DNA of 64,000 nucleotides from Escherichia coli (GTDB taxonomy: Bacteria; Pseudomonadota; Gammaproteobacteria; Enterobacterales; Enterobacteriaceae): NCBI RefSeq assembly GCF_024298765.1, contig NZ_CP101210.1. One strand, 5' to 3'. Every line of letters begins with the position of its first letter. Position 1 is the stretch's first letter. The position numbers were made by a program. Positions 15,001 through 24,000 of the stretch are shown here, in pieces.

Positions 15001-18000
15001 TAAATTTTGTAACGACTGTGAAGACTGCTGGTGTGAACTGGCTAAGGGAGCAAGCGACCCGGCAAAAATTTTACGTGAACAAGCCGGGTTACGGCAGTAC
15101 CAGTGGCGGACGGAAAATACAAGCCATAGCGTCTGGCCTGTGCAGGGTAGATGCTGTATCCGGCGCCGGGGACAACTATGAACAGAATCGCTACGCTTAA
15201 AGCATTCAGGACATTGCGCTGTTTTGCGTTTTCCGCGGAGATGGAGGGTTATACCGTCAGATCTAATAATTTGTCGACTGCATTACCATCCGCAAGGTAA
15301 CTGTAGAAGTGTCTTAAGAGAGTGCATTGCGTTGCCCATAACTGAAAACAGCTTAGATCCTTGTTCACCAGAAAGTTTCATCCATTTTCTTCCACCCAGG
15401 TTGCGGAAGAGCTACTTTTCATCCGTCGTTGACAAATAATGATGAGATAGTCACAGAGCAGCGTTTGGGAAGCGCACAATCACAATATTGTACGGTTGCA
15501 TTATCGCGGTAGAGTATACCTAGACTGGCCCCCTGAATCTCCAGACAACCAGTATCACTTATTTAAGTGATAGTCTTAATACTAGTTTTTAGACTAGTCA
15601 TTGGAGAGCAGATGATTGATGTCTTAGGACCGGAGAAACGCAGACGGCGTACCACACAGGAAAAGATCGCAATTGTTCAGCAGAGCTTTGAACCGGGGAT
15701 GACGGTCTCCCTCGTTGCCCGGCAACATGGTGTAGCAGCCAGCCAGTTATTTCTCTGGCGTAAGCAATACCAGGAAGGAAGTCTTACTGCTGTCGCCGCC
15801 GGAGAACAGGTTGTTCCTGCCTCTGAACTTGCTGCCGCCATGAAGCAGATTAAAGAACTCCAGCGCCTGCTCGGCAAGAAAACGATGGAAAATGAACTCC
15901 TCAAAGAAGCCGTTGAATATGGACGGGCAAAAAAGTGGATAGCGCACGCGCCCTTATTGCCCGGGGATGGGGAGTAAGCTTAGTCAGCCGTTGTCTCCGG
16001 GTGTCGCGTGCGCAGTTGCACGTCATTCTCAGACGAACCGATGACTGGATGGATGGCCGCCGCAGTCGTCACACTGATGATACGGATGTGCTTCTCCGTA
16101 TACACCATGTTATCGGAGAGCTGCCCACGTATGGTTATCGTCGGGTATGGGCGCTGCTTCGCAGACAAGCAGAACTTGATGGTATGCCTGCGATCAATGC
16201 CAAACGTGTTTACCGGATCATGCGCCAGAATGCGCTGTTGCTTGAGCGAAAACCTGCTGTACCGCCATCGAAACGGGCACATACAGGCAGAGTGGCCGTG
16301 AAAGAAAGCAATCAGCGATGGTGCTCTGACGGGTTCGAGTTCTGCTGTGATAACGGAGAGAGACTGCGTGTCACGTTCGCGCTGGACTGCTGTGATCGTG
16401 AGGCACTGCACTGGGCGGTCACTACCGGCGGCTTCAACAGTGAAACAGTACAGGACGTCATGCTGGGAGCGGTGGAACGCCGCTTCGGCAACGATCTTCC
16501 GTCGTCTCCAGTGGAGTGGCTGACGGATAATGGTTCATGCTACCGGGCTAATGAAACACGCCAGTTCGCCCGGATGTTGGGACTTGAACCGAAGAACACG
16601 GCGGTGCGGAGTCCGGAGAGTAACGGAATCGCAGAGAGCTTCGTGAAAACGATAAAGCGTGACTACATCAGTATCATGCCCAAACCAGACGGGTTAACGG
16701 CAGCAAAGAACCTTGCAGAGGCGTTCGAGCATTATAACGAATGGCATCCGCATAGTGCGCTGGGTTATCGCTCGCCACGGGAATATCTGCGGCAGCGGGC
16801 TTGTAATGGGTTAAGTGATAACAGATGTCTGGAAATATAGGGGCAAATCCACTTCTATAAATAATACTAATTAACCTTTATTATTTTTTAATGGTACATG
16901 AACTGTTTTTAGCTGTAACGATAAACAAATCGCCCAAAACGAAAAATACTGGTTATCATTGCTCAGAAAACTCGTACGAGTGGCAGCTTCCCCCCTGAGC
17001 AATGCTTCATTTTCGGTGGTTCTGTGTGATAGAGTTATGCTGACTACAGTGGCAGTAACACTACTTTCCACCACACGAGGATAAAACCAGTCAAAAAATC
17101 AATTATATGAATTAAAAGTATTTTTTATGAAATGTTATGCATATCAACCAGTATGATTAACAGAAAATTTCATCATGACAACACGTATAACTTTCAATAT
17201 GACCAGTGATGAGACGCTGCGAATTGTGGATGAGTACTGTCATACCCACAAACTTTCGCGCTCTAAGGTAATCGACGCATTACTCAGCGCCACAGCACCT
17301 GTCCTTAACGATATTAACTGTTATTATCAACTTGCAGGCAAACTGCAGTCACGCTTATTAAATGGAGTGTATCAACGGGATCTTCCTCACAAACGCAATG
17401 TCGTCAGTGCAGAGAAGTATTGTCTGGAGATCTGGGAAAACAAACTTTTCACCAAAAGAATCCTGGAGTTTGACAGTTCAAATGGTGTTCTGTACGCGCT
17501 GAAACATAAAAGACACTATCGCCGGGATAAGATGATTGGACGGGTTGAAAGCCGGCGTATCAAAGACATTTGCGAATACCAGATGCAACTGTCCGGGGAG
17601 AAGGCAAAATATGCCTGTTTTATTTATATTGAAAGAACAATATACAATCACGATAATCCATCCGGTGGGACACCTGTAAAAGCGGCTGTTGGTAATGCAG
17701 TCATCCTGCTGGCAAAAGACGTGATATATGACGAGTACTTTTTTGATCTGCGGCAGTCATTTTTCGTGAGCGTTAAAGATCTGATGGCCTCTGGCGCAAA
17801 AGGTATTCCGGAGACACAGAAATATCCGGACGTTTATTGCTGGATCCCGCTTTTCTTCATAAATTCCGGCGTGGTCATTACCCCGGTCTATAAAATTGAT
17901 CCCCGGAAACCCGTAACGGTAAAAAAACCGGATCAGATCACTGTTGTTTGTAATTACAGAGAATAATCTCAGTCTTCTCCGCTCACCGCAACAGTGTTTA

Positions 18001-21000: not shown

Positions 21001-24000
21001 TGTTCGCATTTTTAAAATCGGCAAAAATGCGAGAAGAGCAGCTATATTATGGATGAACTGAAAAGTGCCCGGGAGCAACAAAAAAGGCGTGATGAACGTG
21101 CTGATGGTTCCGTTCCGCTGAAACTGTCCGGAAAAATCCACAAACAGCCTGAAAGTATTGCCCGAAGTCGTGGTGCCCCCCAAAAAAACTGTTGAATGAA
21201 ATGATTGAGCTGGCGTACCAGGATTTTGTGGCAAATGAGCAGCACAAGACTCGGAGTTAAAGACTGCAGGGCCCCGGTTACCAATTCTGCAGCATACACA
21301 ACGAATGTATCCGGCTCTTACCTGTGAGGGGCACGAAAATTATACATTGAGCATGAGTGGATAATCCCGGGTGAGAGTCTCCCGTTTTACACTATTCACT
21401 AAAGGTGAGGCATATCATTCAGTCTCTCTGAATTCTTCATTTCAGTAACTTCAGCTACCTTCGTTTCATCTCCCCCACGAACCGGGGCCGCAGCTTGTTG
21501 TATCAATACCAAATTGTTGGTCATTACTGTCCTGTATCACTGGGCTGGCAAGTGAACTGAAATCCGCACCTTAATATTCTGACTGGCTGCGTACATTCAT
21601 GGCATGAAGCGGCCGGAACGGCTGAGCTGAAGGTCCGTTGTGAGCGAACAGCGGACATTCACTACACATGGTTCAAACATGAACCGGAGCTTTATTGTCT
21701 AGCTGTCAGTGTACTGCGATTTACCCGCTCGGTTGTCCAGAAAATCGGTCTGAAATCCAGTCATTAAAGGGCCTTAGCCTGACATTAAGCAACTTGGTAG
21801 GCGGATAGATAATAGAAATAGGAATGCGCAGGTCTGTCATGTTGCCTAGAACGGTGACAAGCTGTCCGGTGCGAAATCATTCCGGCAGCGACAGGCTCAT
21901 GTGTCAGCCCGACGCCCAGACCGTCAACGAGCATGTGGATCTGCGAGGCGTTATCGTTCGCAGCGATGTTAAAACGAACAATCTGCTCATCTTCTAGAAG
22001 CACAAGTGCTTTAATGACATTAAGGCGGTCTATATGTTGCATTACAGACTTCCTATTGATCTTTACCTGAGGCTGAAGCAACCACGTTAATCCGACTATT
22101 TTTCGATTGCACCATCCACTATCACCATCGATCTTCCCTGAGCACAACGTTCAACTCTCCCGCGTACGCCGTATACCTGCGCAAGGCTCTCTGCATGGAT
22201 CACCGTTTGCGGGTCGCCGCTGTCGATAAGTTTCCCCTCTTTCAGCATGATGACCTGGGCGGCATGCCGCAGTGCGATATTGATATCGTGTAAGACGACC
22301 AGCGTAACCATATTGCGTCTTCGCGTTTCGCGCGATACAACATCCATCACATGGAACTGATAATTGAGATCCAGCGCGCTCAGTGGTTCATCCAGCAATA
22401 ATAATGCGGGGCGGCGAATAAGCGACTGTGCAAGCCCCACCAGCTGCTTCTGACCGCCGGACAGGCTATCGAGGTAGTTCATTGCCAGATGTGCGATGCC
22501 TAGCTCTTCGAGCAGCGCTATAGCCTGCGCCTGATTTTGCCCGGCGCCGGAGGCGCGCTGGGCGACAACCACCGACTCCAGCACCTGTAAATGCACGCCC
22601 TGCGGCAGGGACTGCGGCAGGAACACAACTTTTTCAGCCCGACGAGCAAACGGCAGCGATAAGAGATTCTCTTCATTCAGCCAGGCTTCGCCACTGGCGC
22701 GATTTAGCCCGGCCAGGGCGCGCAGTAGCGTTGATTTACCGCAGCCATTAGGCCCCAGCAGTACAGTGACTTCGCCGCGCGGCAGCGTAGAAATCGACAG
22801 ATGCTCAATAATCCGCCGTTTGCCGTAACCGGCGCACAGCGCATTAATCGTAAGCCCGCTCATGACATACTCCCTCGATGACGCATTACAATGCTCAGAA
22901 AGAACGGAACGCCTACCAGCGAGGTAACAATTCCTACCGGTAAAATGACACCGGGAATGATGTTCTTCGACGCTACCGAGGCCAGCGATAGCACCAGCCC
23001 ACCGATAAGGATGCTTCCGGGCAAATAAAAGCGATGATCTTCTCCCAGCAACAGGCGGGAAATATGCGGTGCAACCAGGCCAATAAAGCCAATTGGCCCC
23101 ACAAACGCAACCGAAAGGGCCGCCAGCAGGCTGATGCGCAGCAGGGAACCCAGGCGCAAACGGCGAACATCAATGCCAAAACTCATCGCCCGCTCTTCGC
23201 CGAGGCGTAGCGCGGTAAGCTGCCAGGCACGACGCAGCGACCAGGGTAAAACAATCGCCATCGCCGCCGCCAGCACCGCCAGTTTCTCCCATGATGCGCG
23301 AGCCAGGCTGCCCATCGTCCAGAACACCAGGCCCTGCAAAGTATCTTCATCGGCGACAAACTGCATAATGGACACCAGCGCATTGAAGGTAAACACCAGC
23401 GCAATCCCAAACAGCACAACGCCCGACGTCGGCACGCGCGTCCAGCGGGTCAGACTATCGAGCAGCAGGGCGGACAGGAGCGCAAAAAGAAAAGCGTTTG
23501 CCGGTATAAACCCGCTTTCGGGAACGCCGGGAATACCGATGCCCAGAACAATCGCCAGCGCTGCGCCAAAGGCCGCCGCCGACGAAACGCCAAGCGTAAA
23601 CGGGCTGGCGAGGGAGTTATTCAGAATAGTTTGCATCTCTGCCCCGGCCAAACCCAGCGCCATTCCTACCAGGAGCGCCATCAGCGCATAGGGCAAACGG
23701 ATGTCCCAAACGATAACCCGCATGCCGTTAGTCGCCCCGGACGGATGCATCAAAGTCTTTATCAGCGAATGTAAAGGGAGCCCTGAGGGGCCGAGGGTGA
23801 AATCGAGCAGCAGCGAAGCAATGATAGCGATAAAAATAACCGCCAGTATTACCAGACGCTGGCGAAAAAGCTGGCGATAGCGGTTCTCGACCGACAGCGT
23901 ACTTTCCAATACAGTCATGGTTTTTCACAGCCTCCGTTAGCGCGGCGGATTGAGCACATCGCTCATCTGCGCATCGCTTAACGTCAGGCCAAAGAACTGC

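What the first reader, a model, noticed from the sequence alone, without database searches (positions are those of the whole stretch)
17175..21780. Decayed P4-like segment: AlpA plus remnants, about 2.5 kb without long ORFs, and a small gene split at a C6A7 homopolymer
AlpA and a 205-aa ORF are followed by about 2.5 kb with no ORF above 90 aa, suggesting a pseudogenised large gene such as a primase. At 21049-21260 a roughly 70-codon reading frame (MDELKSAREQQKRRDERADGSVPLKLSGKIHKQPESIARSRGAP / KKLLNEMIELAYQDFVANEQHKTRS) is interrupted exactly at a CCCCCCAAAAAAA tract. This could be decay, a sequencing error, or a slippage-prone switch.
Basis: seen in the sequence. Interest (0 to 1): 0.3.

Follow-up and report, generated by a model that had tools for sequence, protein, structure and literature searches.

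The report
Decayed island segment with gene remnants
This stretch of an E. coli pathogenicity island is ordinary genetic debris, already marked as pseudogenes in public annotations: a regulator gene and its partner, a broken insertion sequence, an orphaned promoter region, and the last 70 codons of a 381-codon gene.

Summary
AlpA (18350-18556), a 202-205 aa partner ORF, about 2.5 kb without credible genes, and a roughly 70-codon frame broken at C6A7 (21176-21188) are all present. The segment is 100% identical to APEC O2-211 and other E. coli genomes, and CFT073 has the same layout in its aspV island.

No P4 primase or integrase similarity exists; only AlpA resembles a P4 protein (Vis). The ORF-free stretch consists of:
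- island backbone (19253-19573);
- a 346-bp IS21-like remnant (19574-19919: an istA piece, the istB 3' end, the right terminal repeat);
- a variable spacer;
- a conserved promoter and leader (20256-21048).

The "small gene" is what a 933-bp, in-frame deletion left of a 381-aa gene that is intact in roughly 1,800 E. coli genomes. The start codon is fused to the last 70 codons, which form a ribbon-helix-helix-like domain. The ribosome-binding site is lost, and one base is missing next to the tract.

The C6A7 allele is essentially fixed: 258 of 285 carrier genomes are at least 99% identical over the 96 nt around the tract. It is therefore neither a sequencing error nor an active switch here. A 15-genome sister lineage carries C9, C10 or C11, and C10 is in frame. 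The finding is known, annotated and of low interest.

The parts
17175..17966 (+). 263-aa YagM-family hypothetical gene, intact
   Evidence: ORF. PGAP names it 'YagM family protein' or hypothetical. No Pfam hit.
18350..18556 (+). alpA (AlpA/Vis-family helix-turn-helix regulator), 68 aa, intact
   Evidence: Pfam PF05930 E=3e-9. P4 Vis tblastn hit at 18401-18541, E=4e-9.
18644..19252 (+). 202-aa (205 aa from GTG 18635) hypothetical gene, the conserved partner of alpA in this island family, intact
   Evidence: The same AlpA plus ~200-aa pair occurs in L003-L006 and L019-L022. No Pfam, NCBIfam or PHROG hit.
19253..19573 (.). Island backbone without genes. It contains 14-nt direct repeats (19468-19481 and 19549-19562) that flank an 81-bp indel.
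   Evidence: Repeats. L010 lacks the stretch between the repeats. No Pfam hit for the ORFs here.
19574..19716 (+). IS21-like istA internal fragment (about codons 85-133)
   Evidence: 82% nucleotide identity to IS21 istA (L013 1047-1194); tblastn E=2e-4. PGAP labels the homologous piece 'IS21 family transposase, frameshifted, incomplete'.
19712..19867 (+). IS21-like istB 3' fragment (codons 214-265)
   Evidence: tblastn with IS21 IstB: 71% identity, E=6e-19. With IS100 IstB: E=5e-9. PGAP labels it 'AAA family ATPase, incomplete'.
19868..19919 (+). IS21-like right end; the terminal inverted repeat ends ...GTGGCGTTGACA at 19919
   Evidence: 85% identity through 19900, then 14 of 14 nt identical to the IS21 right terminus at 19906-19919.
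19920..20255 (.). Variable non-coding spacer
   Evidence: 72-88% pairwise identity with many indels among six related loci.
20256..21048 (+). Conserved non-coding promoter and leader of the 381-aa gene, orphaned here. Includes a sigma-70-like promoter (20392-20419) and a terminator-like hairpin (20716-20733).
   Evidence: About 91-98% pairwise identity among six intact loci, about the same as the coding sequence. Promoter TTGACA-16-TACGAT matches 10 of 12 positions and is invariant even in the divergent L022 allele. The 86-aa ORF here is broken by 2-nt indels in L006 and L019. Fold z=-3.84, but no covariation support.
21049..21260 (+). Remnant of the 381-aa gene: start codon fused in frame to the last 70 codons (ribbon-helix-helix-like C-terminus), then frameshifted. 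The 933-bp deletion junction lies between 21051 and 21052.
   Evidence: Alignment with intact L003 and L004. Deletion size is 933 bp, or 311 codons. tblastn E=1e-27 in two frames. PGAP: 'frameshifted; incomplete; missing N-terminus'.
21176..21188 (+). C6A7 tract. The region is one nucleotide short of in-frame alleles (intact L019: GTC6A7; window: GC6A7).
21261..21780 (.). Non-coding tail that joins the remnant to the iron-uptake module (ABC transporter and TonB-dependent receptor, 22096-27102, minus strand)
   Evidence: Collinear with L003 and L004 downstream of the intact gene. Other islands have a GTPase gene or an MFS transporter here instead.

Best explanation
The segment is a piece of the E. 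coli aspV genomic island, of the type found in CFT073 and APEC strains. It is built from the conserved module 'AlpA, ~200-aa protein, ~1.6-1.8 kb gene-free promoter/leader region, 381-aa protein'. The left part (YagM-like gene, alpA and its partner gene) is intact.

The gene-free stretch was never a large gene. It is island backbone into which an IS21-like element once inserted. That element was later reduced to 346 bp: an istA piece, the istB 3' end and the right terminal repeat. After it come a variable spacer and the conserved promoter and 5' leader of the 381-aa gene.

The 381-aa gene was then destroyed in this lineage in three ways:
- a 933-bp (311-codon) deletion fused its start codon to its last 70 codons;
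- a 5-nt gap plus substitutions removed its Shine-Dalgarno sequence;
- one nucleotide was lost at the 5' edge of a C/A homopolymer. The most likely route is T to C creating a C7 run, then slippage from C7 to C6.

The result is a 48-codon truncated frame lacking the second helix of the predicted ribbon-helix-helix domain. I infer that the locus does nothing now, and that the homopolymer break is a fixed, neutral lesion in an already dead gene.

Shown: the homology, the deletion, the IS fragments and the invariance of the tract. Inferred: the order of events and the loss of function.
For: - Identity and annotation. The region is 100% identical to APEC O2-211 and many other genomes, and CFT073 has the same layout in its aspV island. 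PGAP annotates the same pseudogenes there.
- Intact gene in relatives. Genes of 372-390 aa occupy the same position in L003-L006 and L019-L022. Alignment shows the deletion. It measures 933 bp, exactly 311 codons counted from the GTG start.
- The GTG is the real start. It follows the Shine-Dalgarno sequence GGTGAGGTG. The upstream ATG runs straight into TGA in L005, L006 and L015. The largest protein cluster (4,098 members) starts there.
- The intact form is ancestral. Full-length homologues at 28-38% identity exist.
- IS21 remnant..
- The gap is conserved without any IS100. AlpA, the 200-aa gene, a 1.6-kb gap and the 380-aa gene occur in L020-L022.
- No protein signal in the gap.; no Rfam family.
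- Tract survey. 285 genomes carry the deletion allele, and 258 are at least 99% identical over 96 nt around the tract. In an evenly spaced sample of 60, 54 were exact matches.
- Intact alleles stay in frame. About 45 sampled intact alleles show no indel at the tract.
Against: - The 933-bp deletion is in frame and keeps the native start codon. In the window and APEC O2-211 that codon is ATG rather than GTG. This looks tidy for pure decay, although an in-frame deletion has a one-in-three chance.
- The one-nucleotide loss places A_AAA_AAC in the register of a -1 slippery heptamer, so some full-length product cannot be excluded.
- In a sister lineage, 8 of 15 genomes have the in-frame C10 length.
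- The leader still carries a strong promoter-like site, so the remnant may be transcribed.
- No expression data were available.
Confidence: 0.85

Rival explanations
1. One reading: a decayed P4-like satellite prophage in which the 2.5-kb ORF-free stretch is a pseudogenised large gene such as the alpha primase-helicase.
For: AlpA is a homologue of P4 Vis. Cryptic E. coli islands of this type are traditionally called 'CP4' (P4-like).
Against: - tblastn of P4 alpha, Int, cI, epsilon, delta, sid, psu, gop, beta and cII finds nothing in 17-22 kb. The best alpha hit has E=0.9 and lies at 26.7 kb.
- Every locus fetched that carries an intact copy of the 381-aa gene, and was aligned across the gap, also has a gene-free stretch of this kind.
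- PGAP's protein-to-genome pseudogene detection finds only the IS21 pieces and the 381-aa remnant, in each of the PGAP-annotated genomes inspected.
Confidence: 0.03
2. The deletion created a functional mini-gene: a stand-alone ~70-aa ribbon-helix-helix regulator driven by the native promoter and leader. Its expression would be set either by homopolymer length (phase variation) or by low-level -1 ribosomal frameshifting or transcriptional slippage at C6A7 (A_AAA_AAC).
For: - The deletion is in frame and retains the start codon.
- The start is ATG in the window against GTG in other deletion alleles.
- The sister lineage shows C9 (5 genomes), C10 (8, in frame, not flagged as frameshifted by PGAP) and C11 (2).
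- The heptamer A_AAA_AAC is in the correct register, and a -1 shift restores the C-terminal frame (sequence). This heptamer is the IS1 insAB' frameshift site (my knowledge, not checked here).
- The C-terminus weakly resembles ribbon-helix-helix proteins.
Against: - The Shine-Dalgarno sequence of the intact gene is lost in all deletion alleles.
- The out-of-frame C6A7 state is fixed in about 255 genomes, and the rare variants (C6A6 in M11 and M19) do not restore the frame.
- The heptamer register follows automatically from any 1-nt loss upstream of CCA AAA AAA CTG.
- There is no stimulatory downstream structure (z=0.12).
- The C9-C11 variation is what neutral slippage, or assembly error at long homopolymers, would give.
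Confidence: 0.05
3. The frame break is a sequencing or assembly error at a homopolymer.
For: Homopolymers are classic sites of indel errors. Two PacBio-era mouse isolates (M11, M19) differ by one A.
Against: - The 96 nt around the tract are at least 99% identical in 258 complete genomes, and 54 of 60 evenly sampled genomes are exact matches. These include independently sequenced CFT073, Nissle 1917, ATCC 25922 and ABU 83972.
- The missing base is best described as the T 5' of the C run, judged against the intact L019 allele (GTC6A7).
Confidence: 0.01

Closest known systems
CP4-type cryptic island modules of E. coli (CP4-6, CP4-44, CP4-57 in K-12; PAI-aspV of CFT073)
   Same: - Same gene neighbourhood: YagK/YfjJ, zinc-ribbon proteins, Hha, YagM, AlpA, and a YeeP-like GTPase with Ag43 in sister islands.
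- CFT073 carries this region with the same gene layout at 279.8-283.9 kb.
- The tos operon found elsewhere in the window context is assigned to PAI-aspV (PMC5956150).
   Different: - K-12 CP4-44 itself lacks the leader and the 381-aa gene; only the yeeP remnant matches, at window 31988-32237.
- Here the module is followed by an iron-uptake cluster rather than GTPase and Ag43.
IS21 (IS21 family; istA transposase plus istB helper ATPase)
   Same: 82-85% nucleotide identity to IS21 over an istA piece, the istB 3' end and the right terminus. The last 14 nt of the right inverted repeat are identical.
   Different: Only 346 of about 2,130 bp remain. The left end, the first ~84 istA codons and a ~1.4-kb internal stretch are gone, so it cannot transpose. 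In ST131-type islands an intact IS100 has inserted into the same remnant.
IS1 insA-insB' / dnaX type -1 frameshift sites (A_AAA_AAC / A_AAA_AAG)
   Same: The heptamer A_AAA_AAC is in the zero-frame register, and a -1 shift yields the homologous downstream frame.
   Different: The two-frame arrangement is not ancestral, because intact alleles are single-frame. There is no stimulatory structure, and the gene around the site is a remnant.
Homopolymer contingency (phase-variable) genes
   Same: A poly-C tract inside a reading frame whose length differs between lineages (C6, C9, C10, C11), so that frame differs too.
   Different: The tract lies near the 3' end of a deleted gene. The window's allele is fixed in the off state, and intact alleles do not vary in the sample taken.

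Membership tests
P4-like satellite prophage | Alpha primase-helicase gene or its remnant | tested here: not met
   tblastn of P4 alpha (777 aa) against the whole window. No hit in 17-22 kb at E<=10; the best hit has E=0.92 at 26.7 kb.
P4-like satellite prophage | P4-type integrase next to a tRNA attachment site | tested here: not met
   P4 Int tblastn: best E=1.2, and not in the region. The nearest annotated integrase fragment lies at 29477-30085 on the minus strand, outside the finding.
P4-like satellite prophage | Vis/AlpA-type excisionase-regulator | tested here: met
   P4 Vis matches 18401-18541, E=4e-9. Pfam Phage_AlpA E=3e-9.
P4-like satellite prophage | Helper-exploitation genes (cI, epsilon, delta, sid, psu) | tested here: not met
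   No significant tblastn hit in the region. The psu hit (E=0.13 at 20666-20761) is chance level.
IS21 family insertion sequence | istA transposase and istB helper ATPase in tandem | tested here: inconclusive
   Only fragments are present: istA codons ~85-133 and istB codons 214-265. This shows homology, but the element is not complete.
IS21 family insertion sequence | Two terminal inverted repeats | tested here: not met
   The right end is present and ends at 19919. The left end is absent; no inverted copy was found.
381-aa island protein family (uncharacterised; WP_000263646 / WP_001296206) | Full-length architecture: N-terminal helices, central Trp-rich helical domain, C-terminal ribbon-helix-helix-like domain | tested here: not met
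   Codons 2-312 are deleted. Only the start codon and the last 70 codons remain, and they are frameshifted.
Ribbon-helix-helix DNA-binding domain (for the C-terminal 45 residues) | Sequence or fold match to known ribbon-helix-helix proteins | tested here: inconclusive
Phase-variable contingency locus | Tract length differs among close relatives and toggles an otherwise intact gene | tested here: not met
   Of 285 carriers of the deletion allele, 258 are at least 99% identical over the 96 nt around the tract, and 54 of 60 sampled are exact matches. The gene is a remnant. Only the sister lineage varies, C9 to C11.
Programmed -1 ribosomal frameshift site | Slippery heptamer X_XXY_YYZ in register | tested here: met
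   CAA AAA AAC gives A_AAA_AAC, and the -1 frame continues the homologous sequence. This follows automatically from the 1-nt deletion.
Programmed -1 ribosomal frameshift site | Stimulatory element and evolutionary conservation of the two-frame arrangement | tested here: not met
   The downstream 72 nt fold no better than shuffled sequence (z=0.12). All intact alleles are single-frame.

The most novel reading that the evidence does not exclude
The in-frame 933-bp deletion did not kill the gene. Instead it released its C-terminal ribbon-helix-helix domain as a ~70-aa stand-alone regulator, still driven by the conserved promoter and leader. Output would then be set by the C/A homopolymer: off or leaky (through -1 slippage at A_AAA_AAC) in the C6A7 lineage, and toggling C9/C10/C11 in the sister lineage.
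Probability: 0.05. Interest if true: 0.4.

Novelty: already known. Interest (0 to 1): 0.1.

Why it matters
It matters little. The result corrects a wrong lead: there is no P4 primase here. It also explains an apparently empty 2.5 kb as an IS21 remnant plus the orphaned promoter and leader of a deleted gene.

Two by-products may be worth a note to specialists:
- An uncharacterised 381-aa family with a ribbon-helix-helix-like tail sits between AlpA and the YeeP-type GTPase/Ag43 genes in the sister islands examined. The gene appears intact in roughly 1,800 E. coli genomes.
- That gene has an unusually long, conserved, promoter-bearing leader. It could be a regulatory RNA.

Tried and rejected
- Rfam scan of 12-26 kb at E<=1: only a chance CRISPR-DR13 match at E=0.79.
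- Pfam on ten ORFs from the gap: nothing credible.
- Pfam, NCBIfam and PHROGs on the intact 390-aa protein, the YagM-like ORF and the 205-aa ORF: no family.
- PDB sequence search with the single protein: nothing.
- I first took the three TGTACACGGCCGGA repeats for the multiple terminal repeats of an IS21 left end. I rejected this: the third copy lies inside istA-homologous sequence, there is no inverted copy, and the first two simply flank an 81-bp indel.
- I first computed that a +1 shift was needed at the tract. Recounting shows it is -1.
- K-12 CP4-44 was fetched to look for an annotated sRNA over the leader. The leader is absent there.
- Literature search for PAI-aspV: only the island name and the tos operon were useful. 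The neaT paper was irrelevant.
- RNAalifold on six leader alleles: the covariation term is unfavourable (+4.0), so no structure is claimed.

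
Full report
**What is there.** Window 17175-21780 is 100% identical to the chromosome of APEC O2-211 and many other E. coli genomes. At least 80% of it is present in 596 of 5,426 complete genomes. CFT073 has the same layout at 279.8-283.9 kb, inside the island next to tRNA-Asp. The window has tRNA-Asp at 48618. The tos operon of PAI-aspV is described in PMC5956150.

PGAP annotates the following here:
- a YagM-family gene (17175-17966);
- an AlpA-type regulator (18350-18556);
- a 202-aa hypothetical gene (18644-19252);
- a fragment labelled 'AAA family ATPase, incomplete' (19733-19867);
- a pseudogene labelled 'frameshifted; incomplete; missing N-terminus' (21049-21260).

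One detail is not: two unsupported minus-strand ORFs of 111 and 141 aa exceed the stated 90-aa limit.

**P4 test.** I fetched phage P4 and ran all 13 of its annotated proteins by tblastn against the window. Only Vis (ORF88) matches, on alpA (E=4e-9). Alpha primase, integrase, cI, epsilon, delta, sid and psu give only chance-level hits, and none of note in 17-22 kb. The 'pseudogenised primase' idea is therefore not supported.

**What the ORF-free stretch is.** Comparison with other E. coli genomes, and with an intact IS21 from a plasmid, divides it as follows:
- 19253-19573 is island backbone. It includes an 81-bp indel flanked by 14-nt direct repeats.
- 19574-19716 is 82% identical to istA codons ~85-133 of IS21.
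- 19712-19867 encodes IstB residues 214-265 (71% identity, E=6e-19).
- The right terminal repeat ends at 19919, with its last 14 nt identical to IS21.

Together these form a 346-bp skeleton of an IS21-like element. It lacks its left end and about 1.4 kb of its interior. In ST131-type islands an intact IS100 has landed in the same remnant.

Downstream, 19920-20255 is a variable spacer (72-88% identity with many indels). In contrast, 20256-21048 is about 91-98% identical among six loci, about the same as the adjacent coding sequence. This conserved part holds a sigma-70-like promoter, TTGACA-16-TACGAT, at 20392-20419. The promoter is invariant even in a divergent allele (L022) whose flanks no longer align.

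The only sizeable ORF in this conserved part is broken by 2-nt indels in other alleles, so the stretch is non-coding. Islands without IS100 show the same architecture: AlpA, a 200-aa gene, a ~1.6-kb gap, then a ~380-aa gene. The gap is thus a standing feature of this island family, not a dead large gene.

**What the 'small gene' is.** In L003-L006 and L019-L022, an intact gene of 372-390 aa occupies the position of the remnant. Alignment and counting show that the window lacks 933 bp, exactly 311 codons. The deletion runs from just after the GTG start to the codon for Asp-313 (numbered from the GTG start of the 381-aa protein).

The GTG is the real start for three reasons:
- it follows the Shine-Dalgarno sequence GGTGAGGTG;
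- the upstream ATG runs into TGA in three alleles;
- the largest protein cluster starts there.

The deletion therefore fuses the start codon in frame to the last 70 codons. The start is GTG in most deletion alleles and ATG in the window and APEC O2-211. However, the Shine-Dalgarno sequence has been lost through a 5-nt gap and substitutions.

The region at the homopolymer is also one nucleotide short:
- intact L019: GGT GTC CCC CCA AAA AAA CTG;
- window: GGT GCC CCC CAA AAA AAC TGT TGA.

The frame therefore stops after 48 codons, before the last predicted helix.

**Is the tract a switch?** A 96-nt probe around the tract finds the deletion allele in 285 genomes. Of these, 258 are at least 99% identical. 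In an evenly spaced sample of 60, 54 were exact matches. They include independently sequenced reference strains, which excludes sequencing error. The only one-base variants seen (C6A6 in M11 and M19) do not restore the frame. About 45 sampled intact alleles show no indel at the tract.

A sister lineage of 15 genomes is flanked by an MFS transporter in the five members whose flanks were fetched. It has G C9 (5 genomes), C10 (8) or C11 (2). C10 is in frame, and PGAP then drops the 'frameshifted' flag.

The simplest history is as follows. A T-to-C change turned GTC6 into a C7 run. That run then contracted to C6 in the window's lineage and expanded in the other lineage. This would be slippage without visible selection.

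The 1-nt loss puts A_AAA_AAC into the -1 slippery register, and a -1 shift would restore the C-terminal frame. But that register is an automatic consequence of the deletion, and the downstream RNA is unstructured (z=0.12).

**Verdict.** This is ordinary island decay of known kinds, already flagged as pseudogenes in RefSeq. I put 0.85 on neutral decay and about 0.05 on a leaky or phase-variable mini-regulator. The P4-primase reading gets 0.03 and the sequencing-error reading 0.01. Interest is low.

Noticed in passing
window 20256-21048 (core 20375-20755): There is a long conserved non-coding leader upstream of the 381-aa gene. The leader and its flanking spacer match DNA in over 3,000 E. coli genomes. 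Its sigma-70-like promoter (20392-20419) is invariant even in a divergent allele at 72% identity. It has conserved local hairpins and a terminator-like hairpin with a T-run at 20716-20743. The 629-nt fold has z=-3.84, there is no Rfam match, and no covariation support from six alleles. It could be an unannotated cis-regulatory leader or an sRNA of about 315 nt.
   Followed up: partly
L003 6363-7508 and homologues (not intact in the window): This is an uncharacterised 381-aa protein family with N-terminal helices, a disordered Pro-rich linker, a Trp-rich helical domain and a ribbon-helix-helix-like tail. It sits downstream of AlpA and the 200-aa gene; in the four sister islands where the downstream gene was seen, a YeeP-type GTPase follows, usually with an Ag43-type autotransporter. 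It has no Pfam, NCBIfam or PHROG family, and distant full-length relatives exist at 28-38% identity.
   Followed up: partly
window 31800-32237: A remnant of a YeeP/YkfA-type GTPase gene with an internal deletion. Residues 1-65 and 208-290 of a 290-aa homologue match at 95% and 88% identity. The 3' part is 90% identical to the K-12 yeeP pseudogene.
   Followed up: no
window 15521-16851: A complete IS2 copy (1,331 bp, 99.4% identical to K-12 IS2F) lies on the minus strand, 324 bp upstream of the YagM-like gene. No IS2 is annotated at the corresponding place in APEC O2-211.
   Followed up: partly
window 19468-19562: Two perfect 14-nt direct repeats (TGTACACGGCCGGA) flank an 81-bp segment that is missing in strain VTB96959v (L010). 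This is a textbook deletion or duplication between short repeats.
   Followed up: yes
window 27824-27898 (minus strand): ARAGORN calls a tRNA-Gly(GCC) inside the 269-aa ORF 27585-28394. PGAP annotates that ORF as a hypothetical protein and places no tRNA there. The call may be a false positive or a tRNA-like island junction.
   Followed up: no
L009 (strain 82.0311) 2433-2632: A further deletion-type allele with tract GTC4TCA7, which is in frame at the tract, and a different 5' junction. PGAP still flags it as frameshifted. It may be an intermediate in the decay series.
   Followed up: no
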